A stretch of 64,000 bases of DNA from Oscillatoriales cyanobacterium. GTDB taxonomy: Bacteria > Cyanobacteriota > Cyanobacteriia > Cyanobacteriales > Microcoleaceae. Location of the stretch: assembly GCA_004294385.1 (NCBI GenBank), contig REAP01000032.1:4098-68097 (forward strand), in the 5' to 3' direction. The notes beneath the pieces were generated by a model. It was given only the letters and a program-made list of their open reading frames with translations, had not been told where the DNA came from and made no database searches. This document shows, in pieces, positions 1 to 24,497 of the stretch. The translations under genes were made by a program, and so were the position numbers. Numbering within the stretch: the first letter of the stretch is position 1; each line of letters starts with the position of its first letter.

Positions 1-807
1 GAATTGGGAGCCGTTAAAGATTGGGGCCGCGATAAAAGCCGCAGGCGCACCGTAAGAAGGGGTATAGGGCTTAAAATCTACTATTTTCACATAGTCTTTT
101 CCCTTCGCCTGTCGTGCGGCTTTTACTGCGGATGCTAGGTTACTCTCGTTGTAGGGGCCGTTGGTGAAGTTTGTCGTAAAATCTGTCTCTTTAAAAACCG
201 TGTAGACAACAGTTCCTTCGGGATCGATCAAAAACATATCGTAGTAACCATATTTTTCAACTATATTGCGAAAAATCGGGTGGTAGCGGGCGTGAATCCG
301 GCTGTAAGCGCTGGCGTCGCCTGGATTGTCAAGGAGAAGTTTTTTACCAACGGGGTTGGGGTTAGCAGCGATGTAGTGGTACTGCAAGTAACGAGCCGCG
401 GCTGTTTTTGGTGTATAGGATGCCAGAACCGGCGCACCTTCCTGAGTTTGCGTTAGTTTGGCTATGAATTGTGTCTGGTAGTAAGTATCAATTTTTGCCT
501 CAAAATCCGCTGGTATTGTTGATTGTTCAAGTTGGCGGTAGGCTGTCTTCAACTCCTGCATGGCATCGACAACTGTCAAATCTTCGCTTAGGGTTTCGCT
601 ATGGTTGTGAAGGGTTTCAAAATAATCTTGAATTTGATAAGTTTTGGCAGCCCGAAGGCTAGTTAATTGGTTGAAGACTTTTTCGGTTAGAATAGATTTA
701 CCGGTGCTAGAGCATATATAGGTACTCGCGAACATAGCGCAAAGGCTGACTACCAGCAACATGACTATGAGTTTTGTCTTTATACTTAATTTCTTAAGTA
801 ATTGCAT
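1..807 (-). CDS. N-terminal part of a membrane sensor with a large extracytoplasmic Cache-type domain (probably adenylate/guanylate cyclase or MscS-fused sensor family); runs off the window edge
   Basis: Manual translation from ATG at 807: MQLLKKLSIKTKLIVMLLVVSLCAMFAST...FNQLTSLRAAK...YYDMFLIDPEGTVVYTVFKETDF...PSYGAPAAFIAAPIF, open to base 1. Not in the ORF track because it is truncated. Confidence 0.65.
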   Translation of the reverse strand, partial: MQLLKKLSIKTKLIVMLLVVSLCAMFASTYICSSTGKSILTEKVFNQLTSLRAAKTYQIQDYFETLHNHSETLSEDLTVVDAMQELKTAYRQLEQSTIPADFEAKIDTYYQTQFIAKLTQTQEGAPVLASYTPKTAAARYLQYHYIAANPNPVGKKLLLDNPGDASAYSRIHARYHPIFRNIVEKYGYYDMFLIDPEGTVVYTVFKETDFTTNFTNGPYNESNLASAVKAARQAKGKDYVKIVDFKPYTPSYGAPAAFIAAPIFNGSQF

Positions 808-996
808 AGGAATTTTCCCGATCCTGTTTGCTTTCTTTTTGTGATTATACATCTCGGTAAATTCTACTTTAGTCACTTTGCTACAAGGAGTATTGTTGAT
901 AGTCTTGTACAGCTTATCCATTAATGCTTGAAGATTCAAGCCTCTTTCCAGCATCTCTATAAACTGCCTTAGCTGGATTTTAGCTTTGAAAACTGC

Positions 997-1800
997 TTAC
1001 ACAGGTATTTTAGGCTCATCGTCATTCAATAGCCCCTCACGCAGTTGATGGTACGACTGCTCTAGAGATGACAAATCAATATCTGCACTAGATGTTCCGT
1101 CGTACTCAAAAGGATTGTCAATGTCGTAGATGAGCAACAACAAATACATGAATGACGTAAATAGAAAAGCTGAAATAATCAAATTGGTATAAAACTCGTC
1201 AGTATGCGTTATTAACAAAGCAATGGTTGAGGCAATTATCAGAAGATGCAGCAATTCATAAGCGGATGCCAAAAAGTCGGTATCGCGAATCCTTTGAATT
1301 CGGGCAATCAGAAGACGAATCTTTGCCTGTTCACCTTGAAGGCGAGCCATCAAAGGAGCTTCGCAAAACTTTGATAATGGAACGAGTAATTGATTGAGGA
1401 TTGTAACGGCATTATCAACTCTGATGAATGGCTTATTCTGTTTCAAACAAAGTAGGACTGATTTGAGGATCTCAACTAACCCTTCTGTAAGTAGGGTTGG
1501 GTTATAGTCGGGCTGACGGGCTGCAATGAACAAATTCGTATCTTGAATCGTTTCAACCGCATTCGCAATCTGCGCGGGCATATCTTCACTGGTACGGTAA
1601 TCATTCAGCGTCCCGTTCAGCATAAACGCCAAGATGAACGTTACCGCCGCCAACAGAGAACCTATCTGACTATCGAACTTACCAATTTCCCACTGCATCT
1701 GATGAGCGATCCATTTTGCCAAGCAAAATAGCGCTGTTAGGGGAAGAACTTTGAGTAAGATTCCCCACTTTGACATATCAGTGAGAGTTCGGAAATTCAT
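997..1800 (-). CDS. Conserved membrane protein, bestrophin-like/DUF4239-like topology
   Basis: 267 aa; two N-terminal and two C-terminal hydrophobic helices; FILAFML..TL.DY and IYDIDNPF motifs resemble bestrophin-like channels. Confidence 0.45.
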   Translation of the reverse strand: MNFRTLTDMSKWGILLKVLPLTALFCLAKWIAHQMQWEIGKFDSQIGSLLAAVTFILAFMLNGTLNDYRTSEDMPAQIANAVETIQDTNLFIAARQPDYNPTLLTEGLVEILKSVLLCLKQNKPFIRVDNAVTILNQLLVPLSKFCEAPLMARLQGEQAKIRLLIARIQRIRDTDFLASAYELLHLLIIASTIALLITHTDEFYTNLIISAFLFTSFMYLLLLIYDIDNPFEYDGTSSADIDLSSLEQSYHQLREGLLNDDEPKIPV

Positions 1801-2016
1801 TACATTTATCCTTTACTAAAGATGTGTTTTTGGTGATGAAAGTACATATTCCGTCAGCAGAACGATCGGGAAAGTTAACAATGCCCCGAAGCCAGAACAC
1901 CACAAGAATATGGTTGTTGCTGAAAACTTGGCTCGCAGTTTTTCTACAGTCAGCAGATTGGCGGCAGAAAAGACAGCAGATACAGCACTTTTGGTGGTAT
2001 GTAGGTACTACTTCTT

Positions 2017-2153
2017 GTAGGGACACGGCACTGCCAAGGAGTGTCAACTTAAGGTACAACCGATAGTCCGCCGGGGGTTGAAACCCCCGTCTCAAAGCGA
2101 AAGTCCTCTCAAACAGCTTAAGTTGACACTCCTTGGCACTGCCGTGTCCCTAC
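2017..2153. repeat. Composite palindromic element: 37-bp inverted arms enclosing one AGTCCG-type REP unit
   Basis: 2017-2053 gtagggacacggcactgccaaggagtgtcaacttaag and 2117-2153 are reverse complements with 1 mismatch; the interior 2065-2113 matches the REP consensus seen at 34775. Confidence 0.85.
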
Positions 2154-2268
2154 GGGATATTGATAGTACCTCATAAGCCTGCAATCTGCTGTAGCATGGC
2201 AAACGAGTCACCTTTGAAGTTATCGCTCGCTACCTGCAAATCGCCGAGTCCAATTAAGATTGATCCGC

Positions 2269-2293
2269 TGTGACATTCAGCAGCCAGTTGGTG
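2269..2293 (+). repeat. 25-bp direct repeat, copy 1
   Basis: tgtgacattcagcagccagttggtg, identical to 6489-6513. Confidence 0.9.
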
Positions 2294-2330
2294 TCTGAGT
2301 AGCGTAGGCTGGCGGCATATTCGCCGATCA

Positions 2331-3950
2331 TCAATTAGACAAATACGACTGACGCAAATGCCAGACGATCTCACGCCGCATTTCGCTGAGAATCCGCTGT
2401 CCCCGTTCACAATGTTCTAGCTTGATGTCATCGACATAGAACCGCACCAGCGTGTCTCGCGTGTAATCTCCATTCAGGTCATTGATCCAGATTTTGGGGT
2501 CTTGCCATTCATTGCGTGAACTCTTGAAGTTTTCTCGCAACCATTCGCGAAAGCTTTCTACCAGATCGTCTAATCGCGTTTCTAACCCTTTGGGATTACT
2601 GATTGCCCAAAACAGCTTGTTGACTTTGATCTTCAACAAATCAATCTTCTGTTCCCACTCTTGCTTCAACGTTTGCTGGTCTTCTTGAAATAGGTCAGGG
2701 TCTTTCAACCAGTACTGATACCAACGGCGCATCAGCCCAATCAAACTACTCTCGGATACTGTTCCGGTAGCTTCACTGAGCCAGCGTCTGCGACGGTCAT
2801 GTCGATCGGGCTTTAATTCCAGTCCAATCTTTTGACAAAGTTCCAGATAGTGTGCTTGCACTGTTCGTCGCTCCTTTATATCTAATCCGCCCCTTTCTAA
2901 TTGGGAGATGAGCTCGGCTAGGTGCGCCAAACCCATTTCAATCTCAGCTAGTATAGTATTCACCTCAGACTCAGCTAACAAGCGTTGCCGTCCCGCCTCT
3001 CGCTTCTGTTGCGATTTTATTCCCGGTAAAGAATACCCATAAAACTGGTCAATTAATTCTAACTTCTTGTTAATTTCGCCCATGGTATCGGGGTGCGCCA
3101 GCACGACTTTTTCCATCATGGAGATGGCTAGAGCCGGGGCAACATCTGCTTTGATGGGGATGGAGATCGTGTAGTAGTAATGATTGGTCGGACGGCTGAG
3201 GTTAATAATGTTCTGCCCTTCAAACGTGGCATTGGGAATGTAAATTTGTGAGTGCGTGTCAATGAGATACAGTTCGGTTAATCGCAGCCCAATGTGTTTA
3301 ATCACGCCTCTTCTACCGTTGGCTAGCTCAATCACATCCCCAAAGCGAAACGGTGTATCGATGAGCAAGACCAACCCACTGAAGAAGTTTGCCAGAATAT
3401 CTTTTAGCGCAAACCCCAAGATAAAACTCAATCCTCCGATTGCAACTAACAAACCTTGGATGTCTACACCGAACGCCTGGAGAAACAGCAGTCCAGCCAC
3501 CAAGTAAACAATTAAAGGGAGAAGATTTTGTAGGATGGGAGCGAGAACATCATCCCACATTGCCTCGGAGCCTTCGGCATACTGCCTAAAGGCATAGGTC
3601 ACAACCTCGGCGATAAATTGAACCACCCAAAAGGCGACGACAAGGACAAGAAAAGCGGTCAATCCTCGTTGGAACCAAGTAATGTAAATTGTAGGAGTGG
3701 CAGATAGCGTCAGCAATGCCAGCTTCAAACCGATCGCGAACGCAATGAGTGTCAGCGGCGTTTCTGAGACGTTGAGTGCAACTAACGCCAGGTCGGAGGT
3801 GAATTGACGGAACACCCTCCGCAAAATACCAAACAGTAGGTAGAGAACAATAACGACAACACCAATAATGCCGAAGTTAAGCAAAAATGCACCCCATCCT
3901 GGAGGAGGAAAAATGGCTAACAGAAACGTAGAACTGCTGATCGTCGTCAT
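2331..3950 (-). CDS. Mechanosensitive ion channel family protein (MscS), large cyanobacterial form
   Basis: Several TM helices then LGFALKDILANFFSGLVLLIDTPFRFGDVI...HIGLRLTEL...IYIPN MscS core; long soluble C-terminal insert. Confidence 0.85.
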   Translation of the reverse strand: MTTISSSTFLLAIFPPPGWGAFLLNFGIIGVVVIVLYLLFGILRRVFRQFTSDLALVALNVSETPLTLIAFAIGLKLALLTLSATPTIYITWFQRGLTAFLVLVVAFWVVQFIAEVVTYAFRQYAEGSEAMWDDVLAPILQNLLPLIVYLVAGLLFLQAFGVDIQGLLVAIGGLSFILGFALKDILANFFSGLVLLIDTPFRFGDVIELANGRRGVIKHIGLRLTELYLIDTHSQIYIPNATFEGQNIINLSRPTNHYYYTISIPIKADVAPALAISMMEKVVLAHPDTMGEINKKLELIDQFYGYSLPGIKSQQKREAGRQRLLAESEVNTILAEIEMGLAHLAELISQLERGGLDIKERRTVQAHYLELCQKIGLELKPDRHDRRRRWLSEATGTVSESSLIGLMRRWYQYWLKDPDLFQEDQQTLKQEWEQKIDLLKIKVNKLFWAISNPKGLETRLDDLVESFREWLRENFKSSRNEWQDPKIWINDLNGDYTRDTLVRFYVDDIKLEHCERGQRILSEMRREIVWHLRQSYLSN

Positions 3951-5207: not shown

Positions 5208-6197
5208 ATGTCAACACATTTGTTAAAAAGTATGACAGCCAAACTGGAATTAGCAGAGCAACCGTTGTCCAGAACACCAACTTGGATCGCAACTGCTTCA
5301 TTATTTGCCAGCCTAATCCCCCTATCTTTAGCACCAATCCTCGTCAAATTGTGCGAACGAGAAATAGGTTCAAATGCCGTAGCATTCCATCGTGGCTGGA
5401 TCGCTACCATCATCTTTGGGTTGTTGAGCGGACTTGAAGCTTTGGGCCGCCAAAAATCTGATAACCAACCCGTAGAACAGAAGCCTTTTACGAGACGAGA
5501 ATTGGGGCTATTGGTAGCATTGGGAACTTTCGGAGCGACCTACTTCCTCCTGTGGTCTTTGGCGCTGACTCAAACCAACGTTGCCAACGTTACGTTATTT
5601 TGTGGTTTGAACCCACTGTTTGTCGGTTTGGGGGGGTGGTTGTTATTAGGTCGGAGCTATAATAGCAGATTCATTATTGGCATGATCATGGCACTGGGGG
5701 GAGCGATCGCTATGGGATTGGATGACGTGCAGTTCGCCACTAACCAAGTACAAGGTAATGCCCTCGCCTTGCTATCGGGGATTTGTTTTGCTGCGTATCT
5801 GATACTGCTAGAACTGCTACGAGAACGATTTACCACGGCAACCTTATTGCTGTGGCGCTGCGCCTTCACGACTATGTTTGCGTTTCCCGTCCTCGCACTC
5901 GCCGAAGAAACATTGTTTCCCCATTCCTGGATGGGGTGGTTTTTCGTAATTTTGCAAGCCATCTTGTGCCAAGTGTTGGGTCAAGGACTTTTGGCTTACA
6001 GCCTCAGCCAACTGTCGTCAGGGTTCGTCGCCGTCACGCTGCTTTTCGAGCCAGTCCTTGCTTCAATCTTCGCTTGGGTAATTTTCTCTGAACGCTTGGG
6101 TTTCCTTGACTTGGTGGCGTTTGTCGTGATTTTATGCGGTATTTATGTAGCTCAATCGAGTCAATCTGCCGTTAAAGAAACCAGCGAGGTAGCGTAA
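5208..6197 (+). CDS. DMT/EamA family transporter, paralogue of the upstream gene
   Basis: Same architecture: AFHRGWI, GLNPLFV, LFEPVLASIFAWVIFSERL. Confidence 0.85.
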   Translation: MSTHLLKSMTAKLELAEQPLSRTPTWIATASLFASLIPLSLAPILVKLCEREIGSNAVAFHRGWIATIIFGLLSGLEALGRQKSDNQPVEQKPFTRRELGLLVALGTFGATYFLLWSLALTQTNVANVTLFCGLNPLFVGLGGWLLLGRSYNSRFIIGMIMALGGAIAMGLDDVQFATNQVQGNALALLSGICFAAYLILLELLRERFTTATLLLWRCAFTTMFAFPVLALAEETLFPHSWMGWFFVILQAILCQVLGQGLLAYSLSQLSSGFVAVTLLFEPVLASIFAWVIFSERLGFLDLVAFVVILCGIYVAQSSQSAVKETSEVA

Positions 6198-6488
6198 TTA
6201 ATGCCTGAGAGTAGGTGGCGCGATGCTCAAGCAAATGCCCTTGCCATAATGTCATCAGTCCGATCGCAACTGGTGTCCGCTCTATCTGTTGCTGTGATGG
6301 TTTCAGTTCAATTGTCATCTTCATTCCTGAAAGTTGAACAAAGAATTTCAATGGCGTTTCGAGTGTCTTGCCCATTGCTTCGATCTGCTGGCAGACTTTT
6401 TGCAACGATTTGAGAGCAATGCCTGAGCGATCGCGCTCTAAAGATGTCATGCCCAAGACCTCTTTGACTGCACGACGGATGAGTCGGA

Positions 6489-6513
6489 TGTGACATTCAG
6501 CAGCCAGTTGGTG
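6489..6513 (+). repeat. 25-bp direct repeat, copy 2
   Basis: Identical to 2269-2293. Confidence 0.9.
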
Positions 6514-6838
6514 CCCTACACAGATGAATATTGCCGGAGCACTGGTGGGCGATCGCGAAATCAGCAATTTTTCCACTAATCCAAACATATCCTCTCGCGG
6601 ACAGGCTGGACTTTTCCAAGTGGAGGCATCCTATGTCGATGGATCGCCTCCTTCGACTACTACGGCATAACCGCAGCTAATTGCCGAAACAACTATTGCC
6701 CCCATGCGTAAGTCGTAACTTCAATGAAACGATTCCAGGTCAATAGCTTTCCTCCCGTGCGATCGCATTTCAGTAATCCCCAGATTTTCTAATAAAGGGC
6801 TCGTCACCCTTTTAGTAGAAAATCAGACAAAAATCTCA

Positions 6839-8737
6839 TCAAACAACTGGCATCAATTTATTTATTTTGCCCCCACCTTCGGGAGACTTATACTTCGAGC
6901 CATCAGGCATAACAGCGCCTTCGAGCAAAGCACCACTCAGGTCAGAAATGCTAACTTGAGCACCTTTTAGATTTGCACCACTTAGGTAGGCACTATTCAG
7001 ATTAGCACCACTCAAACTAGCATTCGTCAAATTGACGCCGCTCATATTTGCGTTACTCAAGTCCGCACAAATTAAATTAGCGTCACTGAGGTTGGCATTA
7101 CTGAGATTAACCTGACTCAAGCGAGCAAAACCTAGCTTGGCATGGCTGAGATTAGCACCCGCAAGTTTAGCTTGACTGAGGTTAGCATTATCTAAATTGG
7201 CATAACTCAAATTAGCATTACTCAAGTCGCTTTCCATCAAATTGGCTTTACTGAGATTGGCATGAGGGAGATTAATATCTATTAACTCTGCACCAATAGC
7301 ATCTACACCTCTAAGAGAAACACCATCTTTATTCAAATCTTGGAGTGCCAGAATTCTAGCATAGCTAACTTTTACGCTGTGCGCTGCATCAACTGTACTC
7401 CAAGCTTGGTAGTGAAATTGCTTTTTGCGATCCGGAGCTTCCTTAATGAATAAAACTAAAGCAACAACGAGACTGATAGCATCAGCAGTCTCCAAAATCT
7501 CTGCAAGCAGAGAATTTTCCTCCGCGTTTACATAAATTATGATGAACAGAACGGCTGAAACAAAAGCAACTAACCAGGCGGGTTGTGTCCAAAAATTATC
7601 AATGAATTTTTCTAAAATTCCTTTGAGAAATTCACCCAATCGCTGAACCAATGATTGACCCTGAAATTGCTGATAACTATCAGTTATTATTGATACTAAA
7701 GGCTTTTTCTGTTGCTCAGTTGGCGGCTGAAGCGCTTGAGATTCATTCAGTAATTGTGTAGGTGATTCTTTTGGCTGATTGGGGGTGACATCTTTTTCAT
7801 CTGCGACAACCTTTGGTGTAGAAACTGCACCTGCGCCTTTTAACATCAAACCAGTAATTGCTCTGTAGGCATCTGTCCACGCCCGCTTTACTTCAGGAGT
7901 CCAATCTTGCTGGAGAGACTGCTCAAAAGCACTCAGCAGTGCTTCTCCAACTGGGCCGTAATATTTGGGAATTACCCCGTAGCCGATGTGTCTGCCTCCC
8001 AAGGCATTTAGAACAGGTTCTAAAGCTTCTGGAGAGCGGAGATTTTCTACTACCAATACCAAAGCATTAAGGAGCTTCTTCTGTTGAATTTTTATATCTA
8101 TATTGGCAAACAGCGGTTTAAATTCAGGATGAGCGATGAATAGATTTTCGTAGAAGCTAGCGGTAAATTCATCAGCACGAGGTTTGATTTTCTCGAAACT
8201 GCTTTCCAGTAACTCTACGGCTAATTTTGGCTCTTTTTCTGGAACTGATTCTAGTTGGTGATTAGCTGGTATAGTCACCTTTTTATCGGGAATTATCTCT
8301 GTTTCTAATTGAACTTTTTCAGGTGTAGAAACTGCACCTGCGCCTTTTAACATCAAAGCAGTAATAGCTCTGTAGGCATCTGTCCACGCCAGCTTTACTT
8401 CGGGAGTCCAATCTTGCTGGAGAGACTGCTCAAAAGCACTCAGCAGTGCTTCTCCAACTGGGCCGTAATATTTGGGAATTACTCCATAAACGATGTGTCT
8501 GCCTCCCAAGGCATTTAGAACCGGCCCTAAAGCTTCTGGAGAGCGGATATTTTCTACTACTAAAACTAGGGAATTTAACAGTTTTTTCTCTTGATTTCCC
8601 ATATCAGTATTGGCAAATAACGGTTTCACTTCTGGGTGAGCTTTAAAAAGATTCTCGTAGAAGCTGGCTGCAAATTCATTAGCGCGAGGTTTAACTTTAT
8701 CGAAACTTTGCTCTAAAAGTTCAACATTTAAAGACAT
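6839..8737 (-). CDS. Tandem double-globin protein with two TM helices and C-terminal pentapeptide repeats
   Basis: Two copies of a flavohaemoglobin-like globin (SFYENLF..HP..KPLF...Q.KKLL..LVLVVEN...LGGRH..YGV...YY.PVGEALL...W..AY), a hydrophobic hairpin (WLVAFVSAVLFIIIYV; ISLVVALVLFI), then many A(N/D)LS.A-type pentapeptides. Confidence 0.85.
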   Translation of the reverse strand: MSLNVELLEQSFDKVKPRANEFAASFYENLFKAHPEVKPLFANTDMGNQEKKLLNSLVLVVENIRSPEALGPVLNALGGRHIVYGVIPKYYGPVGEALLSAFEQSLQQDWTPEVKLAWTDAYRAITALMLKGAGAVSTPEKVQLETEIIPDKKVTIPANHQLESVPEKEPKLAVELLESSFEKIKPRADEFTASFYENLFIAHPEFKPLFANIDIKIQQKKLLNALVLVVENLRSPEALEPVLNALGGRHIGYGVIPKYYGPVGEALLSAFEQSLQQDWTPEVKRAWTDAYRAITGLMLKGAGAVSTPKVVADEKDVTPNQPKESPTQLLNESQALQPPTEQQKKPLVSIITDSYQQFQGQSLVQRLGEFLKGILEKFIDNFWTQPAWLVAFVSAVLFIIIYVNAEENSLLAEILETADAISLVVALVLFIKEAPDRKKQFHYQAWSTVDAAHSVKVSYARILALQDLNKDGVSLRGVDAIGAELIDINLPHANLSKANLMESDLSNANLSYANLDNANLSQAKLAGANLSHAKLGFARLSQVNLSNANLSDANLICADLSNANMSGVNLTNASLSGANLNSAYLSGANLKGAQVSISDLSGALLEGAVMPDGSKYKSPEGGGKINKLMPVV

Positions 8738-8753
8738 AATTTTTCTTTCCTGA

Positions 8754-10061
8754 TTAGTTGGCTAGAATTATATCAGAGTAAGCAAAAGACCAAACTGGAT
8801 ACATTTTGAAAAACTCTTCAAAGGAGATTTTCAAATCTTTATTTTCATCATATTTTTCCATGTATTCATCAACTTCAGTAGAAGGTAATCCCCACTCTAA
8901 CAATAGGATTTTTAGCTCAAATTCATCAATGTAACCACTTCGATCAATATCTATTTGCTCGAAAATTAATCTGCACTTTTCTTCATTGCTAATATTTTTA
9001 CCCTTGGTTAAACATTCAACTTTTAGTGTTTCTGTTTGTAGTCGTTGTTTAACACCCTTAATTTGCCAGATTTTTTTATAAAATTCATCGAAACTAAATT
9101 CATTAGAATCTGTATTTCGAGCAAGAAATGTATTGATAAAAGAATCTGGAACTTGCCACTCGTGCCAAAGAGTTCTCAATTCGACTTTATCTAAACTTCC
9201 AGTTTTATCTGTATCCAATTGAGCAAAAACTGCTGCTGCGATTGTTTGATCGTCAACTTCATCAGAATTGATTGACAAATTATTACTTATCCATAATTCT
9301 CTCGCATCTTCATCAATTAATGTTTGTCTTTGACTTTCTTTCGTCCAACTTATCCATTCTGCTGCGGTAGGATTCATAATTAACTTGTACAAAGCATTAT
9401 ATCCAAGGACAAAAAGGATAAAAAACAAGTTGCCAGAAGCACCTAATACAGAGGGTAATATCAACACACCAGCCGCGAGAATCGAAGCAGAATAAAGATT
9501 ATCTTTGAAGAGTCCAAAAACAGTAAAAACAAAGTAAAACACTCGACACCAAACGTATGTACTTAGAACTAAAAATGTGTTGATTAACCAAAAATTTGAA
9601 TCCGGTTGTAAGAGGAGATTAATGGCACTATAAAGATGTAAGCTGACAAAGAATAGATATCCTGGAATCATTGCACTCTTGGAGCCAAAAACAATCGGTG
9701 TTTGGTAAAAAGATGAGGTGACGTGACCGATGATGGCTGATAGTGCCATGATCGTCGCGGGTATTTCTGGATTACTACTAAAAAATGCAATCACACCAAA
9801 AACAACCTCTATACTTCCAGAAATTACGTGAGTTCTGATTGATAGTTTCCTCTTGGGTAGCATGAGAAATTTTGGGTGTGGCGGGTTCGTGTAATGGTAG
9901 TACAAAACATAAAAATTACTGAGGATTGATGCGCCACAAAGAATTATTTTTTGATAATATTCTGTTTCCTCTCCTGTAAAAGTTGTACTAAAATAAAAGC
10001 AAGCTATGGCATAAATACTGACAGGCAACAGTAGCAATAAGTTTTTGAAATATACTGGCAT
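8754..10061 (-). CDS. Polytopic (~8 TM) membrane protein with C-terminal EF-hand domain
   Basis: About 230 hydrophobic N-terminal residues; EF-hand loops DTDKTGSLDKVE, DIDRSGYIDEFE, DENKDLKISFEE plus one degenerate loop. Confidence 0.8.
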   Translation of the reverse strand: MPVYFKNLLLLLPVSIYAIACFYFSTTFTGEETEYYQKIILCGASILSNFYVLYYHYTNPPHPKFLMLPKRKLSIRTHVISGSIEVVFGVIAFFSSNPEIPATIMALSAIIGHVTSSFYQTPIVFGSKSAMIPGYLFFVSLHLYSAINLLLQPDSNFWLINTFLVLSTYVWCRVFYFVFTVFGLFKDNLYSASILAAGVLILPSVLGASGNLFFILFVLGYNALYKLIMNPTAAEWISWTKESQRQTLIDEDARELWISNNLSINSDEVDDQTIAAAVFAQLDTDKTGSLDKVELRTLWHEWQVPDSFINTFLARNTDSNEFSFDEFYKKIWQIKGVKQRLQTETLKVECLTKGKNISNEEKCRLIFEQIDIDRSGYIDEFELKILLLEWGLPSTEVDEYMEKYDENKDLKISFEEFFKMYPVWSFAYSDIILAN

Positions 10062-10154
10062 ATCTAGTCTCCTTTTTCCTTCTTGATGATTGTTTTGTAC
10101 TACTTGTCTAATGGTGATAGTTGATTGAAATCGCTTGTTTTTTCAAAAAAGCAA

Positions 10155-10478
10155 TTACAAACTCAAATTTTCCAATTCTTGCCACAGGGTAGCCATAAAG
10201 CCCTCTGCATCCTTGATGCCCATTTCTCCTAAAGCTTTCCACTCTTCACTACTGTAGTCTAAATCGAGTCCCATCACGTCTTGAGTCCAATAGGGCAAAT
10301 TAGATGGGTTTTCCATTAGCTCAGAGGTGAGCTTTAAGATTTCTATTCCGGTAGTATTTTTTCTAACCTTTGTCGCTAAGCAAAAGGAGAGCAATTTTGC
10401 CAAATTACTTTCGGGTGGAATGGATATTAGAAATGCCATATTTTGGGCTAGGATAAATTCATTTAATTTCATTGGCAT
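10155..10478 (-). CDS. Small acidic hypothetical protein (107 aa)
   Basis: Co-oriented ORF between two clear genes; plausible helical sequence; no recognisable motif. Confidence 0.65.
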   Translation of the reverse strand: MPMKLNEFILAQNMAFLISIPPESNLAKLLSFCLATKVRKNTTGIEILKLTSELMENPSNLPYWTQDVMGLDLDYSSEEWKALGEMGIKDAEGFMATLWQELENLSL

Positions 10479-10694
10479 TTATTCCTCGTTTTTCGGTATT
10501 CAAGTAAGGCGATCGCGCTACCATTTAGATTGCATCCAGAGAGGGTGATCCTACGCCAATAGGATGGACGAAACTGAGGTTAGCATTTTTGGAGGGACTT
10601 AAGTCAGGTGTTTTTAACAGTTTTTGATGGTGTAGAAGATTCTTTCTATGCACCATCAATAACTGTTAGAGGATATCAAAAAGTTGCACGATAT

Positions 10695-13091
10695 CTATAC
10701 TACTTCCACAAACACACCGCTGCGGGCAAACTCCTCTTCTTCAGGCGTGAAGTAAGGAGCTTTATCCATAATCTCAGGGTCAAAGCGGTATGTTTCTTGA
10801 AGGAATTGTCCGGCGATCGCAGCTTCCTCCAACTCCTGGATGTAATCTTCGGCTAGCGTACAAGCCTCCCTGATGCCTTCCTCTTCCCCTTTCACTAACA
10901 GCTTGTGCAGCGTTGCTCTGACCCCTGCCAACCGCGATGCTGGCTTGAGCAGCCCGTAGAGGCGGTATAGGCGATCGACTGATATGCTCAGATGCTTGAG
11001 TGCTTTGCTGCGTGCCAGTTCCGAGTCCAAACTCGGCCAATAGCGGGTAGTGTAGAATGCTTTCTCATCCTTGTGATACCACTCCTCCGATCGAGCAATG
11101 GACGAGGAGACGGTGTTATGCAGCTTCCAGAAAAATAAGCGCAGAGCAGGGCCATCGACAACTGTAGATAGTTTGGCCTCCATTGACACTTCAAAGTTAT
11201 TGAGCTGCGGGTCGCGTCCCAACAACAGATATTCTACTGGGTACATATCCACCTCTTTGTTCTGCACGACGTACATATTCAGGTGGTGACGGCAGTAAGG
11301 GCAGGGATACATGGTAGCAAAACGCTTAAAAAAGTCTTTGAAGACTGCTACTAAAGCTTTTTGCTCTTGCTGCGGCTTGGTAGACACAATTTCAGCCGTG
11401 GTGTGGAAAAAGCGCCACACCGCAGAGCCAATATAGTAGGGGAAGCTGATACGCATCTGGGAATCCTTGATATCACTCCGCCCCAAATACACATCAATGA
11501 ATGACACATACTGGGAAAGCGCCCCTGACTCGCGCCCAAACTCTTGGCGTTCGCGCCGTTTTTGCACGCCATTGAGGTAGTGGTGCGTCAAACGCCATGC
11601 CTGCTTGAGGGCCAGTTGTTGTTTTGGGCTGCATTTAGAAAAGTTTTGTGCCACATCAGATCCATAGCGGTCAAATTCTCCAATTGCCTTGGTGTCTTCG
11701 TACCACTGAGCCAAAGCTGCTTCGTCAGGAACGGTGTTGCTCTGGATATCGGCAGCAGTGCTGACACTGAAGGCCGCTAGCAGTTTCGGCATGAAATCTT
11801 CATACCAGTAAGCTACTGGCATCATCGCACCCTCTATTTCTGCTTCAGCATCGGAGAGGATAACGCGGTTCCAGCGCTTCAGATAATCTTTGGGATCGCC
11901 TTCTGATTTGGGGGGAGGTGGGGCAAGCTCTGCATTCAGCTCCATCTGTCTCAGGCGGTTGAGTTCGTTGATGGCAAGCACGCCCTCGGCGATGTCGCTA
12001 AAGCTGAAATGCTTTTTCTTCATGGTGATGGCGAACTCGACGCCTGCGGCAAATTTCTCCTTGACAGAGATTGATTTACTGCGTGCCTCCTGCATTGCTT
12101 TAGCTTCTGCCAGCATCTCTGGTGTTTTTTCGATCGTCTTCCAGTTCTTGATGCGATCGGACAGTCGGGCGTACTCTTGTTCGATCGATTCAACGACTGC
12201 ATCTAGCAGGGGATGGCAAGCTGTTTCTACGATACCTAAACCCTTGTACAGTGCGATCGCATTCTGCACAAACTGCACAAAGTCGCTGATTTTGTAGGGC
12301 AGATTTTTCACGCGCAGGTGTGTTTCATGGTTGGCCGAGAAACTCTCGCGGAAGCAGCGGTAGGCGGCTCCTTGGATCAGGCGAAATAAACCGATCTGCA
12401 TTTGCAGGCGGGAGGTGGCGCGTTCTTTTTGCTCTTGTGGGTGTTGCGCGAGTAGTTCTTTGAGTCGCGCCACTTCTGGATCGTCGCTGGGTGTTTCCTG
12501 TGCCGGAGATTCGGTAGTCGATAAACTGGTTGCATCGGTGGCCGCCGCTATTTCTGAAGTGACGGTGGCTGCATTATTTGAATGGGAGCTACTAAAAGAA
12601 ATTGGCGAATCTTGATAGCCGCTAGTTATTTCTGATTCATCTGGAACCAGTTTGATGAATTCTTCAAAGTCAATGGAGCCACCGCCATCACTATCGACCT
12701 CATCGATCATTTCTTTGAGTTCTTGATCCGTCACCCCAAACTGGCTCATGACGCTGTGCATCTCGTTGGCAGTGATGCGACCGCTGCCGTCTTCATCAAA
12801 CACGCTGAATGCCAGCTTGAGACGGCTTTTGCGATCGCCTTGCTGGGACAGTATCAGTGTTTTGAATTCCTCAAAATCGATGCTGCCGGACAAGTCAACG
12901 TCCACTTCTTTAATCATGTCGCGCAGCTCTGTTTCGCTCGAACTTTGCCCCAGCGATCGCATCACTTGCCCCAGTTCTTCTGCTGAGATGGCGCCGCTGC
13001 CGTCTGTATCAAATACTTGGAAAGCTTCCCACAGCTTCGTCACCTCTTCTTCAGTCATCACCTTTTTTTCTAGTGCTACAGTTGCCATCAA
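10695..13091 (-). CDS. Calmodulin-like 4xEF-hand protein fused to a C-terminal ERV/ALR-like (FAD sulfhydryl oxidase) domain
   Basis: N-term EAFQVFDTDGSGAISAEELGQVMRSLGQ...ELRDMIKEVDVDLSGSIDFEEF...FDEDGSGRITANE...DSDGGGSIDFEEF; C-term GSAVWRFFH-x32-PCPYC...FFWKLHNTV matches the ERV/ALR signature. Confidence 0.75.
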   Translation of the reverse strand: MMATVALEKKVMTEEEVTKLWEAFQVFDTDGSGAISAEELGQVMRSLGQSSSETELRDMIKEVDVDLSGSIDFEEFKTLILSQQGDRKSRLKLAFSVFDEDGSGRITANEMHSVMSQFGVTDQELKEMIDEVDSDGGGSIDFEEFIKLVPDESEITSGYQDSPISFSSSHSNNAATVTSEIAAATDATSLSTTESPAQETPSDDPEVARLKELLAQHPQEQKERATSRLQMQIGLFRLIQGAAYRCFRESFSANHETHLRVKNLPYKISDFVQFVQNAIALYKGLGIVETACHPLLDAVVESIEQEYARLSDRIKNWKTIEKTPEMLAEAKAMQEARSKSISVKEKFAAGVEFAITMKKKHFSFSDIAEGVLAINELNRLRQMELNAELAPPPPKSEGDPKDYLKRWNRVILSDAEAEIEGAMMPVAYWYEDFMPKLLAAFSVSTAADIQSNTVPDEAALAQWYEDTKAIGEFDRYGSDVAQNFSKCSPKQQLALKQAWRLTHHYLNGVQKRRERQEFGRESGALSQYVSFIDVYLGRSDIKDSQMRISFPYYIGSAVWRFFHTTAEIVSTKPQQEQKALVAVFKDFFKRFATMYPCPYCRHHLNMYVVQNKEVDMYPVEYLLLGRDPQLNNFEVSMEAKLSTVVDGPALRLFFWKLHNTVSSSIARSEEWYHKDEKAFYTTRYWPSLDSELARSKALKHLSISVDRLYRLYGLLKPASRLAGVRATLHKLLVKGEEEGIREACTLAEDYIQELEEAAIAGQFLQETYRFDPEIMDKAPYFTPEEEEFARSGVFVEVV

Positions 13092-13279
13092 TTAATCCTC
13101 ACCAAGTTTTAAGTACAATAAGGGAGCATTTTGCTCATCATTTATCGTCAACGAAGTAGAGCCATCAATCCGTTATTATTTTCGACCTCATTTGGCTCTG
13201 TACTTAACTAATTAGAGTATACTGAAACTAAGAAACCTAAATATTGATATAAAAGTTTACAAAAAAATAGGAGATATTA

Positions 13280-13324
13280 TTTCCTACTTTTCCTACTTTT
13301 CCTACTTTTCCTACTTTTCCTACT
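13280..13324 (+). repeat. Tandem 9-mer (TTTCCTACT)x5
   Basis: Directly read in the intergenic region upstream of the calmodulin-Erv gene. Confidence 0.9.
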
Positions 13325-13631
13325 TTAAGGAAGCGCAAAATTGGTGTCAACTTAAGGTCAAAAGCATCGATCGCATTCATCAGAATGTAGGTTAATGTAG
13401 CTGCTACGCCCATCGAGACAAAGACCAAAGTTGCAATTGCCAGTTGTTGCAGACAAGCTAGCGATCGCGCTGTATCAGTTGAGGAAAATATATCGCTAAG
13501 GAATGTTTCACACGTCCTAGCTCTTCTGCATTGAATTCTTTTTGTGAAGCGGCAGAAGTTGCTGTGGTTCCATCCTGGGATGTATAGCAACCGCCAAGGT
13601 GGTTAAGGCATTTATGTGATCGTTCCCTGAG

Positions 13632-13692
13632 CCCAACGACTGCGTTTATCCTGAGCGTAGTCGAAGGGCTCAGGATAAACGCAGTCGTTGGG
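13632..13692. repeat. Perfect 25-bp-stem hairpin with loop GTAGTCGAAGG
   Basis: cccaacgactgcgtttatcctgagc / gctcaggataaacgcagtcgttggg; contains the CCTGAGCG.AGTCGAAGG short-repeat core. Confidence 0.85.
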
Positions 13693-13840
13693 TTCAATGA
13701 CTAAAGCGCCTTGGCGCTAAGTTTCTAGTGTTCATGGTTTACTTTAATACACCTTAAACAGGATTTAGATTGTTTTGTAACGTGGAAGTTTCAGACTTTC
13801 AAATCAGGTATGCTGAAAACCGACTAAACAATACCACAAA

Positions 13841-13861
13841 AGCACGGTCTTTGACCGTGCT
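13841..13861 (-). terminator. Probable intrinsic terminator of the nir-nrt operon
   Basis: agcacggtc-ttt-gaccgtgct 9-bp stem followed on the minus strand by a U run, ~160 nt downstream of the nrtD stop. Confidence 0.55.
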
Positions 13862-13881
13862 GAGTATAAATATTAATCTTT

Positions 13882-13936: not shown

Positions 13937-14021
13937 ATTTAGCAATTAGACATCTGCCATAATTATTGTGGAACAGGCAGGATGCCTGTTCCACCCAGGC
14001 TTTTTGGGAGATGTCTATTAG

Positions 14022-24491: not shown

Positions 24492-24497
24492 GTACCG

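What the first reader, a model, noticed from the sequence alone, without database searches (positions are those of the whole stretch)
6839..13091. Candidate new system: Ca2+/globin/thiol-oxidase four-gene cluster
Four co-oriented genes with short gaps (217, 93 and 16 nt) encode, in order: calmodulin-like domain plus ERV/ALR-like oxidase; a 107-aa unknown; a ~8-TM His-bearing protein with EF-hands; and a double globin with TM hairpin and pentapeptide repeats. Two independent Ca2+ sensors, two heme O2/NO-binding domains and a putative O2-consuming, H2O2-producing disulfide generator in one unit match no characterised bacterial pathway I know of. The cluster lies directly downstream of the nitrite-reduction operon. 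Hypothesis: a membrane-anchored Ca2+-gated redox/O2-NO sensing or oxidative-burst module, conceptually analogous to EF-hand-regulated eukaryotic oxidases.
Basis: partly seen in the sequence, partly recalled or inferred. Interest (0 to 1): 0.9.

Follow-up and report, generated by a model that had tools for sequence, protein, structure and literature searches.

The report
Calcium-linked globin gene island, not operon
The four genes are real, but they are one cyanobacterium's local mix from a widespread, undescribed gene island in which a conserved small-protein-plus-membrane-globin pair sits among varying calcium-switched enzymes such as NADPH oxidase and NO synthase.

Summary
They are not a conserved four-gene unit. 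No genome among the 185,579 species representatives scanned was found to hold all four together.

- **EF-hand/Erv protein (EFErv):** a highly conserved stand-alone gene. It lies within 10 kb of the globin gene in about 6 of 79 genomes, in different orders.
- **8-TM EF-hand gene (TMEF):** low-GC and sporadic. It looks horizontally acquired and sits in the p107|globin slot.
- **Conserved unit:** p107 plus the globin/TM-hairpin/pentapeptide protein (globPRP), adjacent in 68 of 80 genomes.

This pair sits in a variable island rich in EF-hand proteins, 12.7-fold denser than control flanks. I found at least 11 EF-hand architectures there, including NOX5, NO synthase, arginase, urea transporter and His-phosphatase, plus MscS and bestrophin channels. 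In the reverse test, about 22 of 27 cyanobacterial NOX5 genes lie within 10 kb of p107, most just upstream of it.

So the Ca2+/oxidase/globin idea survives at island level, but the four-gene system does not. The function is inferred: a Ca2+-triggered ROS/NO module with a membrane-tethered, flavohaemoglobin-like globin.

The parts
10695..13091 (-). EFErv: cytoplasmic calmodulin-like 4-EF-hand domain, then a low-complexity linker (about aa 150-205), a conserved unknown helical region (aa 205-556) and an Erv1/ALR-type FAD thiol-oxidase domain with CPYC (aa 597-600, nt 11292-11303). The likely true start is the ATG at 13088.
   Evidence: Pfam EF-hand_1 E 1e-28 and Evr1_Alr E 3e-10, above cut-off. 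PDB Erv1/Erv2/ALR matches cover W..H and YPCxxC. CPYC, W559, H563 and 'FFWKLHNTVSSSI' are invariant in more than 100 homologues. 588 homologues; the 120 listed are cyanobacterial by name at 72-98% identity. The middle region has no PDB sequence match.
10615..10668 (-). Long imperfect hairpin 25 nt after the EFErv stop codon; a candidate 3' end or terminator element of EFErv.
   Evidence: The intergenic fold has z = -3.9 against shuffles. The segment stays attached to EFErv in Tychonema BBK16, where the downstream gene differs; the alignment runs to window 10624. No U-tract, so terminator function is inferred.
13322..13350 (-). Sigma-70-like promoter match (TTGACA-17-TAAAGT) upstream of EFErv.
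   Evidence: Best match in the region, 10 of 12. This is a consensus match only.
10155..10478 (-). p107: a 105-107 aa all-helical acidic protein of a cyanobacteria-only orphan family; the conserved upstream partner of globPRP.
   Evidence: 173 homologues; all named ones are cyanobacterial 'hypothetical protein', none with Pfam. 25 invariant residues including C31, W62 and W78. AF2 gives six helices, pLDDT 72. No PDB fold match, best E 3.9. Immediately upstream of globPRP in 68 of 80 genomes. RNA contigs of relatives join it to globPRP.
8754..10061 (-). TMEF: an 8-TM domain with conserved histidines (PPHPKF, RxHxxSGxxE, HxxSxxxQTPIVFG) and C-terminal EF-hands. It is a low-GC gene inserted in the p107|globPRP slot.
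   Evidence: AF2 model pLDDT 84.5. The TM-domain family has 282 representatives, 47 of 58 with EF-hands and 17 of 58 with cNMP-binding domains. GC3 is 0.29; nucleotide identity of 86-91% to Nostocales is at least as high as amino-acid identity of 85-88%. Absent in L080, internally deleted in L151. Elsewhere it sits in unrelated contexts.
6839..8737 (-). globPRP: two 3/3 globin domains (aa 1-135 and 172-305; proximal His81 and His250, TyrB10, GlnE7), a linker, a TM hairpin (aa about 382-432, nt 7442-7594), the highly conserved juxtamembrane motif KEAPDRKKQFHYQAW, a pentapeptide-repeat domain (aa about 465-615) and an invariant C-terminal PVV.
   Evidence: Pfam. Closest PDB globins are M. infernorum HGbI at E 3e-22, flavohaemoglobins, VHb and the syNOS globin at E 1e-7. 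Conservation was read over 62 full-length homologues. 135 relatives were found in genome contigs.
13342..13515 (-). Remnant (pseudogene fragment) of the island gene His_Phos_1 + TM + EF-hand (677 aa in relatives).
   Evidence: tblastn 49% identity over q455-519. The gene is full-length at the same place in L080; the window carries two deletions relative to L080. The full gene is present near globPRP in 32 of 80 genomes.
6358..6696 (-). Remnant of a 464-aa island gene of unknown function. By eye it has a GATase1-like 'CLGHQ' motif (my reading of the sequence, not tested).
   Evidence: tblastn 59% identity over q146-258. Full-length in 8 globPRP loci. No Pfam or NCBIfam match.
1..3950 (-). Further island genes in the window: adenylate cyclase (dCache-HAMP-cyclase, 1-834, runs off the window), a bestrophin-like protein (997-1800) and an MscS-family channel (2331-3950). 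In other Microcoleus genomes the first two directly follow globPRP.
   Evidence: tblastn 90% and 80% identity to the recurrent neighbours. Pfam. Neighbour frequencies.
13841..13861 (-). Terminator-like hairpin after nrtD. It separates the nirA-nrtABCD operon from the island.
   Evidence: 9-bp stem with 6 GC pairs and a T-rich tail.

Best explanation
**What is shown.** The four ORFs are the local, partly decayed version of a variable gene island found across cyanobacteria.
- **Core.** The island's constant core is the two-gene unit p107 plus globPRP, a double globin tethered to the membrane by a TM hairpin and ending in a pentapeptide-repeat domain.
- **EF-hand genes around the core.** Different lineages carry different EF-hand-fused proteins, almost always on the same strand: NOX5 NADPH oxidase, NO synthase, arginase, urea transporter, His-phosphatase, PLP-decarboxylase, MFS and DUF924.
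- **Other recurrent genes.** The island also holds ion channels (MscS, bestrophin, cNMP-gated MscS) and an adenylate cyclase.
- **This window.** The place just upstream of p107 is taken by NOX5 in most cyanobacterial NOX5 genomes found. Here it is taken by EFErv, which is otherwise a stand-alone, strongly conserved Ca2+-EF-hand/Erv-type flavin thiol oxidase with its own promoter-like site and 3' hairpin. The p107|globPRP intergenic slot has captured TMEF, a horizontally moving 8-TM EF-hand protein. Two other island genes survive only as fragments.

**What is inferred (mechanism).**
1. A cytoplasmic Ca2+ rise switches on the EF-hand flavoenzymes. These reduce O2 or make NO: NOX5 gives superoxide, NOS gives NO, and EFErv carries out thiol oxidation with H2O2 or a haem protein as electron sink.
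2. The membrane-tethered globins have HisF8, TyrB10 and GlnE7, like flavohaemoglobin and the syNOS globin. They bind O2/NO and either dioxygenate NO or sense these gases and signal through the pentapeptide domain, together with p107.
3. EFErv may act as the Ca2+-gated reductase of the globin haem. From my own knowledge, mitochondrial Erv1/ALR reduces cytochrome c.
For: **Core pair.**
- p107 lies directly upstream of globPRP in 68 of 80 genomes, from Pseudanabaena to Nostocales.
- Metatranscriptome contigs of relatives from two studies join window 10154 to 8743 or 8738, so p107 and globPRP lie on one RNA contig.

**EF-hand enrichment.**
- ORFs with at least 2 EF loops number 5.19 per 100 kb in globPRP flanks against 0.41 per 100 kb in EFErv flanks, each about 1.23 Mb. 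That is 52 of 80 loci against 11 of 79.
- 76 of 78 of these ORFs are on the globPRP strand.
- 28 of 45 dereplicated lineages have at least one.

**Architectures near globPRP (Pfam).** His_Phos_1+TM+EF (32 loci), NOX5 (15), UT+EF (11-13), arginase+EF, NOS+EF, decarboxylase+EF, MFS+EF, DUF924+EF.

**Reverse test and NOX5 identity.**
- About 22 of 27 cyanobacterial NOX5 loci carry p107 within 10 kb, most of them 60-220 nt downstream. None of 6 proteobacterial loci does.
- The Cylindrospermum copy is the orthologue of crystallised csNOX5, 5o0x at E 8e-165.

**Erv and haem residues.**
- The Erv active-site residues are invariant.
- The haem-pocket residues are conserved.
- The globins resemble flavohaemoglobin and syNOS globins. 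The syNOS globin is a Ca2+-context NO dioxygenase (PMC12922734, PMC6104048).

**Window versus relatives.**
- Comparisons with L080, L151 and L160 show the TMEF insertion, its deletion in a relative, and the gene remnants.
- Composition and nucleotide-versus-amino-acid identity point to horizontal acquisition of TMEF.
- An EF-hand NOS lies immediately upstream of EFErv in Plectonema radiosum.
Against: - No experiment or transcript data exist for this organism. Only DNA runs hold the window itself.
- The RNA evidence comes from assembled contigs of relatives, and these can contain DNA.
- Many globPRP loci are Microcoleus strains, so the counts are not phylogenetically independent. 17 of 45 lineages show no EF-hand gene within 10 kb, and some of those contigs are short.
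- The NOX5 reverse scan relied on peptide patterns from one query and may miss divergent copies.
- Haem, FAD and Ca2+ binding are inferred from sequence only.
- EFErv lacks the second (shuttle) CxxC and the CX16C structural disulfide of classical Erv/ALR enzymes.
- No reductase-globin contact has been shown.
- p107 and the pentapeptide domain have no assignable activity.
- EFErv is unlinked to globPRP in more than 90% of genomes, so any EFErv-globin partnership cannot be obligatory.
Confidence: 0.6

Rival explanations
1. The four genes form one dedicated, co-inherited and co-transcribed system, a membrane-anchored Ca2+-gated redox/O2-NO sensing or oxidative-burst module made of exactly these four parts.
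For: The genes are co-oriented with short gaps, 16 nt between TMEF and globPRP. All four are intact. The domain themes fit together. The nearest relatives keep EFErv-p107-globPRP (L080) or EFErv...p107-TMEF'-globPRP (L151).
Against: - None of the 170 related loci from the three scans of 185,579 species genomes has all four genes.
- EFErv is alone in more than 90% of its genomes.
- TMEF is absent from L080 and internally deleted in L151. Elsewhere it sits in unrelated contexts.
- GC3 ranges from 0.29 to 0.56 across the four genes.
- A strong hairpin and 216 nt separate EFErv from p107.
- Relatives' RNA contigs of EFErv run into unrelated sequence after its stop codon.
Confidence: 0.07
2. There is no functional link. 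The region is a recombination or insertion hot spot, or a block inherited by descent, where unrelated accessory genes, many of them EF-hand genes of foreign origin, pile up next to p107-globPRP. The adjacency says nothing about function.
For: - The window shows insertion, deletion and pseudogene remnants.
- TMEF shows signs of horizontal transfer.
- Published work proposes that cyanobacterial NOX5 came from a eukaryote by HGT (PMC9421330).
- Island content varies even among Microcoleus strains.
Against: - 76 of 78 EF-hand ORFs are co-oriented with globPRP.
- The NOX5-to-p107 spacing is tight and recurs across orders.
- The enrichment is specific to EF-hand and ion-channel genes rather than to mobile-element genes.
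- No defence-system or other curated-family match turned up for the four window proteins.
- EFErv lies next to the pair in two different arrangements in distant lineages, L080 and the window against L114.
Confidence: 0.2
3. globPRP is not an NO/O2-handling enzyme or sensor downstream of Ca2+. It is the upstream element: a haem-gated membrane protein, with the TM hairpin oligomerising into a pore or controlling one, that generates or shapes the Ca2+ signal read by the surrounding EF-hand proteins.
For: - It is the one constant gene among variable Ca2+-responsive ones.
- The best-conserved stretch is TM2 plus the juxtamembrane motif.
- The loop between the TM helices is acidic (NAEENSLLAEILETAD).
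- Channels (MscS, bestrophin) recur beside it.
Against: There is no similarity to any channel family. No oligomer model could be made. This is pure inference from architecture.
Confidence: 0.1

Closest known systems
syNOS, the globin-containing Ca2+-activated nitric oxide synthase of Synechococcus PCC 7335 (PMC6104048, PMC12922734; PDB 9q05)
   Same: It combines a flavohaemoglobin-type globin with a Ca2+-switched flavoenzyme that makes a radical gas. Its globin acts as an NO dioxygenase. The globPRP globins match the syNOS globin at E 1e-7. EF-hand NOS genes lie next to globPRP in two genomes.
   Different: In syNOS everything is one soluble polypeptide and Ca2+ acts through a C2 domain. Here the globin is a separate membrane-tethered protein with a pentapeptide domain and a partner, p107. 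The Ca2+ sensors are EF-hands on separate proteins, and the window has no NOS.
Flavohaemoglobin (Hmp) and single-domain bacterial globins (Vitreoscilla VHb, Methylacidiphilum HGbI)
   Same: Same 3/3 globin lineage with HisF8, TyrB10 and GlnE7. Best PDB hits are 3ubc/3s1i at E 3e-22, plus 1cqx and 1vhb. NCBIfam 'NO-inducible flavohemoprotein' matches at E 7e-40 but below its cut-off.
   Different: There is no fused FNR-like reductase. The globin is duplicated, membrane-anchored and fused to pentapeptide repeats. Any reductase would be a separate, possibly Ca2+-gated, protein.
csNOX5, the EF-hand NADPH oxidase of Cylindrospermum stagnale (PDB 5o0t/5o0x; PMC7317449)
   Same: It is an EF-hand-regulated, O2-reducing flavoenzyme. 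Its orthologues occupy the position just upstream of p107-globPRP that EFErv occupies in the window.
   Different: EFErv has no ferric-reductase TM domain or FNR-like domain. It is soluble and uses an Erv-type FAD/CxxC site. The window holds no NOX5.
Erv1/ALR/Erv2 and viral cytoplasmic Erv-type sulfhydryl oxidases (PF04777)
   Same: It has the YPCxxC active site and the W..H and HNxV FAD-contact motifs, and the Pfam score is above cut-off. Like the poxvirus and ASFV enzymes, it would act in the cytoplasm (own knowledge).
   Different: It is 798 aa long, with an N-terminal calmodulin-like domain and a 350-aa unknown domain. A roughly 30-aa insertion separates the CxxC helix from the HNxV helix. 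It has no shuttle CxxC and no CX16C disulfide.
Globin-coupled sensors (HemAT, EcDosC and similar)
   Same: An N-terminal globin is joined to a different C-terminal domain, so a haem-ligand-controlled output is plausible.
   Different: The globin here is of the flavohaemoglobin/single-domain type, not the sensor/protoglobin type; no Protoglobin Pfam hit appeared. The output is a pentapeptide-repeat domain with no known catalytic or signalling activity.
Catalogue of bacterial calmodulin-like EF-hand fusions (Schaffer, Iyer, Burroughs and Aravind 2020, PMC7016017)
   Same: It lists EF-hand fusions to a '7TM' domain in cyanobacteria and actinobacteria, which fits the taxa I found for TMEF, and to NADPH oxidase and NOS. 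It proposes Ca2+-dependent membrane and redox signalling.
   Different: It works at the level of domain architecture only. Its text holds no mention of globin, pentapeptide, bestrophin or Erv, and it does not describe p107 or this gene neighbourhood.

Membership tests
Conserved gene cluster or operon of the four genes (the claim itself) | The same genes are adjacent and co-oriented in several distant genomes | tested here: not met
   None of 170 related loci has all four. EFErv lies within 10 kb of p107-globPRP in about 6 of 79 genomes, in different orders. TMEF is full-length beside globin sequence only in the window and in L160.
Conserved gene pair p107-globPRP | Adjacent and co-oriented across distant genomes, and found on one transcript | tested here: met
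   68 of 80 genomes. RNA contigs of relatives from two metatranscriptome studies bridge the two genes. Transcription in this organism was not tested.
Erv1/ALR sulfhydryl oxidase (PF04777) | Profile match above the curated threshold | tested here: met
   40.8 bits against 27.6, covering profile positions 2-56 of 93. PDB Erv1/Erv2/ALR hits at E 0.003-0.5.
Erv1/ALR sulfhydryl oxidase (PF04777) | Redox-active CxxC next to the flavin, plus the W/H and HNxVN flavin-contact motifs | tested here: met
   C597-P-Y-C600, W559, H563 and 'WKLHNTV' are invariant in more than 100 homologues. The last Asn of HNxVN is replaced by Ser.
Erv1/ALR sulfhydryl oxidase (PF04777) | Second 'shuttle' disulfide (CxxC or CxC on a flexible arm) and, in ALR/Erv1, the CX16C structural disulfide | tested here: not met
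   The only other conserved cysteines are single: C292, C487 and C744.
Erv1/ALR sulfhydryl oxidase (PF04777) | Bound FAD and thiol:O2 or thiol:cytochrome oxidoreductase activity | not testable with these tools
   This needs purified protein.
Calmodulin-like EF-hand Ca2+ sensor | Canonical 12-residue loops in paired helix-loop-helix motifs | tested here: met
   EFErv has 4 EF-hand_1 stretches, 3 of which match PROSITE PS00018. TMEF has 2 canonical loops and a calcineurin-B/calmodulin-like fold in the model. Ca2+ binding itself was not tested.
3/3 globin, flavohaemoglobin / single-domain lineage | Proximal HisF8, distal TyrB10 and GlnE7, and a profile match | tested here: met
   Pfam Globin at 119 bits against 22. 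H81 and H250 and the FY motif are invariant; Q49 is at least 90% conserved. Haem binding was not tested.
Flavohaemoglobin (Hmp) | Globin fused to an FNR-like FAD/NAD(P)H reductase domain | tested here: not met
   No such domain is in globPRP. The NCBIfam Hmp model scores 137 bits against a cut-off of 432.
Globin-coupled sensor | Sensor-type (protoglobin-related) globin plus a recognised signalling output domain | tested here: not met
   No Protoglobin match. The output is a pentapeptide-repeat domain.
Pentapeptide-repeat protein (PF00805) | Tandem A(D/N)LXX repeats that form a right-handed beta-helix | tested here: met
   118 bits against 20.2. PDB matches to pentapeptide structures down to E 2e-39. 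The fold of this copy was not modelled.
NOX5-type EF-hand NADPH oxidase | Ferric-reductase TM domain with two haems, plus an FAD/NADPH dehydrogenase domain | tested here: not met
   None of the four window proteins has these domains, and tblastn with NOX5 finds only the EF-hands. True NOX5 is present at the equivalent place in relatives.
Known anti-phage defence systems (PADLOC) | Any component matches a defence-system model | tested here: not met
   No hits for the four proteins or for the 464-aa neighbour.

The most novel reading that the evidence does not exclude
p107-globPRP is the conserved core of a previously undescribed cyanobacterial Ca2+-dependent ROS/NO signalling island. The island gives bacterial NOX5, and cyanobacterial EF-hand NOS and EF-hand Erv enzymes, their first physiological context. 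The membrane-tethered globin would work as a 'split', Ca2+-gated flavohaemoglobin or haem sensor. It would be reduced or triggered by the neighbouring EF-hand flavoenzymes, with a pentapeptide-repeat domain and p107 as a new kind of output.
Probability: 0.35. Interest if true: 0.8.

Novelty: new variant of a known kind. Interest (0 to 1): 0.62.

Why it matters
Ca2+ signalling in cyanobacteria is well documented physiologically, but few of its molecular components are known (own knowledge).

Cyanobacterial NOX5 is the structural model for the NADPH oxidase catalytic core. None of the NOX papers I read gives its role in the cyanobacterium (PMC7317449, PMC9421330).

A conserved partner pair next to most cyanobacterial NOX5 genes found, surrounded by at least 11 kinds of EF-hand enzymes and channels, turns both questions into testable ones:
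- delete or express p107-globPRP;
- measure Ca2+-evoked superoxide, NO and nitrate;
- test the EF-hand flavoenzymes as reductases of the globin.

The work also points to a widespread Ca2+-regulated Erv-type thiol oxidase acting in a bacterial cytoplasm, and to an uncharacterised 8-TM histidine-rich domain that is regulated by EF-hands or cNMP in several phyla.

For annotation, the lesson is that a tidy-looking four-gene "operon" can be a mosaic of a core pair, a stand-alone gene and a recent insertion.

Tried and rejected
**Searches that led nowhere.**
- The Foldseek PDB search with the p107 model found nothing (best E 3.9).
- The Foldseek search with the TMEF model hit only the EF-hand half, so the 8-TM domain stays unassigned. 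I had no structure jobs left to fold the TM domain alone, EFErv, or any complex.
- The EFErv middle region (aa 205-556) has no PDB sequence match even at E 10. It has no Pfam match at E 1. I could not test whether it is the 'Tic110-like' domain mentioned in PMC7016017.
- NCBIfam gave no family above cut-off for any of the four proteins. PADLOC gave none.
- Rfam found nothing in 6000-14200.
- Literature searches for EF-hand + sulfhydryl oxidase + cyanobacteria, and for globin + pentapeptide + cyanobacteria, returned nothing relevant.
- No sequencing run holds RNA of this organism. Only DNA metagenomes hold the window at 97-98% of sampled words, so co-transcription here is untested.

**Ideas considered and rejected.**
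- TMEF as a paralogue of the TM part of the His-phosphatase-EF protein: hhalign aligns only the EF-hands.
- TMEF as a dedicated partner of globPRP: its homologues sit in unrelated contexts.
- A functional tie to the nirA-nrt operon: that adjacency was seen only in the window and in L080.
- A conserved operon around EFErv: its neighbours are lineage-specific.

Full report

Yes. The window has four intact minus-strand ORFs at 10695-13091 (798 aa), 10155-10478 (107 aa), 8754-10061 (435 aa) and 6839-8737 (632 aa). The gaps are 216, 93 and 16 nt.

Pfam confirms the stated domains:
- four EF-hands plus Evr1_Alr in the first ORF (40.8 bits against a 27.6 cut-off);
- nothing in the second;
- a C-terminal EF-hand pair in the third;
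- two Globin domains plus Pentapeptide repeats in the fourth.

I call these genes EFErv, p107, TMEF and globPRP. The upstream genes are nirA (with a fused ferredoxin domain), nrtA, nrtB, nrtC and nrtD, so "downstream of the nitrite-reduction operon" is correct. A terminator-like hairpin follows nrtD at 13861-13841, and a promoter-like site lies at 13350-13322. EF-hand loops occur nowhere else in the 64 kb.

**2. The individual proteins**

*EFErv.*
- It has 588 homologues. The 120 listed are cyanobacterial by name (Nostocales and Oscillatoriales) and 72-98% identical over the full length.
- PDB sequence searches align aa 553-611 with Erv1, Erv2 and ALR across the W..H helix and YPCxxC.
- In an alignment of more than 100 homologues, C597-P-Y-C600, W559, H563 and 'FFWKLHNTVSSSI' are invariant. 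There is no second CxxC. Only single conserved cysteines remain (C292, C487, C744).
- The 350-aa region between the EF-hands and the Erv domain is as conserved as the rest, but has no Pfam or PDB match.
- I saw no signal peptide or TM segment in the sequence, so I take it to be cytoplasmic (my reading of the sequence, not a prediction tool).

*p107.*
- It belongs to a cyanobacteria-only orphan family of 173 proteins, mostly 105 aa, with no Pfam and 25 invariant residues.
- AlphaFold2 gives a six-helix model with pLDDT 72. The model has no fold match in the PDB.

*TMEF.*
- The model has eight TM helices and a calcineurin-B/calmodulin-like C-terminal half, pLDDT 84.5.
- The TM domain defines a family of 282 representative clusters. 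Of 58 members scanned, 47 carry EF-hands and 17 carry cNMP-binding domains.
- Invariant residues include PHPKF, H78, G82, E85, Q120, VFG126 and R173.
- Members occur in Nostocaceae, Chamaesiphon, Chloroflexota, Streptomyces, Archangium and a eukaryote.
- This is probably the 'EF-hand + 7TM' architecture listed by Schaffer et al. 2020 for cyanobacteria and actinobacteria (PMC7016017).

*globPRP.*
- The globins are closest to Methylacidiphilum HGbI (E 3e-22), flavohaemoglobins, VHb and the globin of syNOS (E 1e-7).
- In 62 full-length homologues the proximal His (H81, H250) and Phe-Tyr B9/B10 are invariant, and Gln E7 is at least 90% conserved.
- The best-conserved stretch of the whole protein is TM2 plus 'KEAPDRKKQFHYQAW'. 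The C-terminal PVV is invariant.
- The two globin domains of the window are 84% identical. Judging from match lengths, relatives carry one, two or three.

**3. Synteny: the decisive test**

I fetched ±10 kb around relatives of EFErv (79 loci), globPRP (80 loci) and TMEF (11 loci) from one genome per species. I then located all window genes in those loci by tblastn.

- No locus has all four genes.
- EFErv has p107-globPRP within 10 kb in about 6 of 79 loci, with different layouts:
  - EFErv-p107-globin-globPRP in Microcoleus sp. herbarium14 (L080);
  - EFErv-HisPhosEF-NOX5-p107-TMEF remnant-globPRP in Tychonema BBK16 (L151);
  - p107-globPRP-EFErv in an uncultured Nostocales-like genome (L114);
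  - 5-8 kb apart in two others.
- In complete genomes the two genes are megabases apart (coordinates).
- EFErv's own neighbours are lineage-specific.
- By contrast, p107 sits directly upstream of globPRP in 68 of 80 loci, from Pseudanabaena and Limnothrix to Nostocales.
- Full-length TMEF exists in only 8 species genomes, and 7 of them have no p107 or globin gene within 10 kb. Further homologues on metagenome contigs sit in unrelated contexts.

**4. How the window arrangement arose**

- Against L080, the window matches at 96.8% through EFErv and p107 and at 92% through globPRP. The 1410 bp in between (TMEF) is replaced in L080 by 637 bp holding a third globin.
- Tychonema BBK16 has TMEF with an internal deletion of about 900 bp.
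- Anabaena lutea and an uncultured genome keep only its last 45-60 codons in front of globPRP.
- Anabaena azotica shares TMEF plus the first 210 nt of the globin gene at 90% nucleotide identity.
- TMEF has GC3 of 0.29, against 0.43-0.56 for neighbouring genes. Its nucleotide identity to Nostocales copies (86-91%) is at least as high as its amino-acid identity (85-88%). For p107 the figures are 76-78% and 75-81%. This pattern fits recent horizontal acquisition by recombination at this slot.
- The window also holds fragments of two other recurrent neighbours: a His-phosphatase/TM/EF-hand gene at 13342-13515 and a 464-aa unknown at 6358-6696. Further downstream lie an MscS channel, a bestrophin-like protein and an adenylate cyclase, the last two of which directly follow globPRP in other Microcoleus genomes.
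- The EFErv-p107 spacer folds into a long hairpin at 10668-10615 (z = -3.9). That hairpin stays with EFErv in Tychonema, where the next gene is different.

**5. What surrounds the p107-globPRP pair elsewhere**

I clustered the neighbour ORFs and scanned them against Pfam. Table 1 lists the recurrent genes, nearly all on the globPRP strand.

Table 1. Recurrent neighbours of p107-globPRP.

| Neighbour | Loci |
|---|---|
| His_Phos_1 + TM + EF-hand | 32 |
| EF-hand NOX5 | 15, plus 2 partial |
| Urea transporter + EF-hand | 11-13 |
| dCache-HAMP adenylate cyclase | 11 |
| MscS + cNMP-binding | 10 |
| Bestrophin_2 | 8 |
| Bestrophin-like | 8 |
| Other MscS forms | 6-7 |
| EF-hand + arginase | 4 (2 of them among the 80 globPRP loci) |
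| EF-hand + NO synthase | 2 genomes, 0.45 and 2 kb downstream of globPRP |
| PLP-decarboxylase + EF-hand | Scytonema |
| MFS + EF-hand | Dolichospermum |
| DUF924 + EF-hand | Pseudanabaena, Limnothrix |

Counting the window's EFErv and TMEF, that makes at least 11 EF-hand architectures.

The enrichment is strong:
- ORFs with two or more PROSITE EF loops number 64 in 1.23 Mb of globPRP flanks, against 5 in 1.23 Mb of EFErv flanks. That is 5.19 against 0.41 per 100 kb, or 52 of 80 loci against 11 of 79 with at least one EF-loop ORF.
- 76 of 78 of these ORFs are co-oriented with globPRP.
- After collapsing to 45 lineage labels, 28 keep at least one EF-hand neighbour.

The reverse test agrees:
- Of 27 cyanobacterial NOX5 loci, about 22 have p107 within 10 kb, mostly 60-220 nt downstream and followed by globPRP. 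None of six proteobacterial NOX5-like loci does.
- The Cylindrospermum copy is the orthologue of the crystallised csNOX5 (5o0x at E 8e-165, 5o0t at E 2e-113).
- An EF-hand NOS also lies immediately upstream of EFErv in Plectonema radiosum.

**6. Transcription**

No RNA data exist for the organism itself. In ice and biocrust metatranscriptomes, contigs of 82-99% similar relatives cover EFErv, p107 and globPRP but not TMEF. Contigs from two studies join 10154 directly to 8743 or 8738, so p107 and globPRP lie on one RNA contig. EFErv contigs run into unrelated sequence just after its stop codon. Assembled contigs can include DNA, so this evidence is supportive rather than conclusive.

**7. Most likely working**

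*Shown.* The core pair, the EF-hand-rich co-oriented neighbourhood, the intact catalytic and haem residues, and the mosaic origin of the window's arrangement.

*Inferred.*
1. A Ca2+ rise activates EF-hand flavoenzymes that reduce O2 or make NO (NOX5, NOS), or that oxidise thiols (EFErv).
2. The membrane-tethered globins have the TyrB10/GlnE7 pocket typical of NO-dioxygenating globins, and the related syNOS globin is an NO dioxygenase in a Ca2+-activated enzyme (PMC12922734, PMC6104048). They would handle or sense O2/NO, with the pentapeptide domain and p107 as partners or output.
3. From my own knowledge, mitochondrial Erv1/ALR pass electrons to cytochrome c. EFErv could therefore act as a Ca2+-gated reductase of the ferric globin. 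NOX5 or NOS reductase domains could play that part in other genomes.

I give this overall reading 0.6. The evolutionary part is much firmer than the biochemical part.

**8. Known or new**

- The single architectures EF-hand-NOX5, EF-hand-NOS and EF-hand-7TM are catalogued (PMC7016017, PMC7317449).
- Published work proposes that cyanobacterial NOX5 is a transfer from eukaryotes (PMC9421330).
- In the library I searched, no paper describes p107, the globin-pentapeptide protein, the EF-hand-Erv protein or this neighbourhood.
- None of the four proteins reaches an NCBIfam cut-off.

I therefore file it as a new variant of known kinds (globin-coupled or flavohaemoglobin-like systems, EF-hand-regulated oxidases), not as the discrete four-gene system proposed.

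**9. Verdict**

It stays well above ordinary because of the NOX5-p107-globPRP link and the breadth of EF-hand enzymes gathered around one conserved globin pair.

Noticed in passing
window 14334-14560 (inside nrtD, 14022-15734, minus strand): A 24-nt tandem repeat, 9.7 copies at 91% match, encodes a Thr/Ala/Pro-rich 'TTAPTAA(A)' repeat. It lies in a C-terminal extension of about 290 aa on the nitrate-transporter ATPase NrtD, which makes the protein 570 aa long.
   Followed up: partly
window 20642-22516 (minus strand): The ferredoxin-nitrite reductase NirA (NCBIfam E 5e-271 over aa 2-510) carries a fused C-terminal plant-type 2Fe-2S ferredoxin domain (aa 549-622).
   Followed up: no
window 13280-13326: A perfect 9-nt tandem repeat (TTTCCTACT, 5.2 copies) lies between the His-phosphatase remnant and EFErv and overlaps the promoter-like site by a few bases. 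On the minus strand it reads as (KVG)n inside a spurious ORF.
   Followed up: no
window 15787-15890: Two adjoining heptanucleotide arrays (GGGCATT x9, TTCTTCC x5.7) fill the nrtC-nrtD intergenic spacer.
   Followed up: no
L031:2818-7440 and 8292-10655 (Plectonema radiosum NIES-515): A 1548-aa-type EF-hand nitric oxide synthase (NOS oxygenase + flavodoxin + FAD + NAD domains in its L082 counterpart) lies about 850 nt upstream of the EFErv orthologue on the same strand.
   Followed up: partly
L094:1892-5166, L135:1171-4473, also L183 and L202: An EF-hand + arginase-family gene is directly followed by a urea-transporter + EF-hand gene, near p107-globPRP. This looks like a Ca2+-switched arginine-to-urea route and may connect to the EF-hand NOS, which also uses arginine.
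   Followed up: partly
window 6839-8737 and loci L080, L133, L144-L158: The number of globin domains in globPRP varies among genomes, judging from match and ORF lengths: one at about 470 aa, two at about 640 aa, a separate extra 142-aa globin in L080 and L133, and one ORF of 846 aa. The window's two copies are 84% identical, which suggests recent duplication or gene conversion.
   Followed up: partly
window 10695-13091 compared with L001, L014, L017-L026: The window's EFErv is closer to some Nostocales copies (88% amino-acid and 85% nucleotide identity to strain HT-58-2) than to most Microcoleus copies (72-82%). Its GC3 of 0.56 is the highest in the region. This points to paralogy or lateral exchange of EFErv itself.
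   Followed up: no
window 23610-34565: Three genes: an XDD3 exosortase-dependent surface protein (23610-24491), an SBBP beta-propeller/RTX-repeat Ca2+-binding protein (24684-26654) and a 2620-aa ORF (26703-34565). I did not examine them further.
   Followed up: no
window 10500-10515 (minus strand, upstream of p107): A HIP1 palindrome (GCGATCGC), the highly iterated cyanobacterial octamer, lies about 25-30 nt upstream of the p107 start.
   Followed up: no
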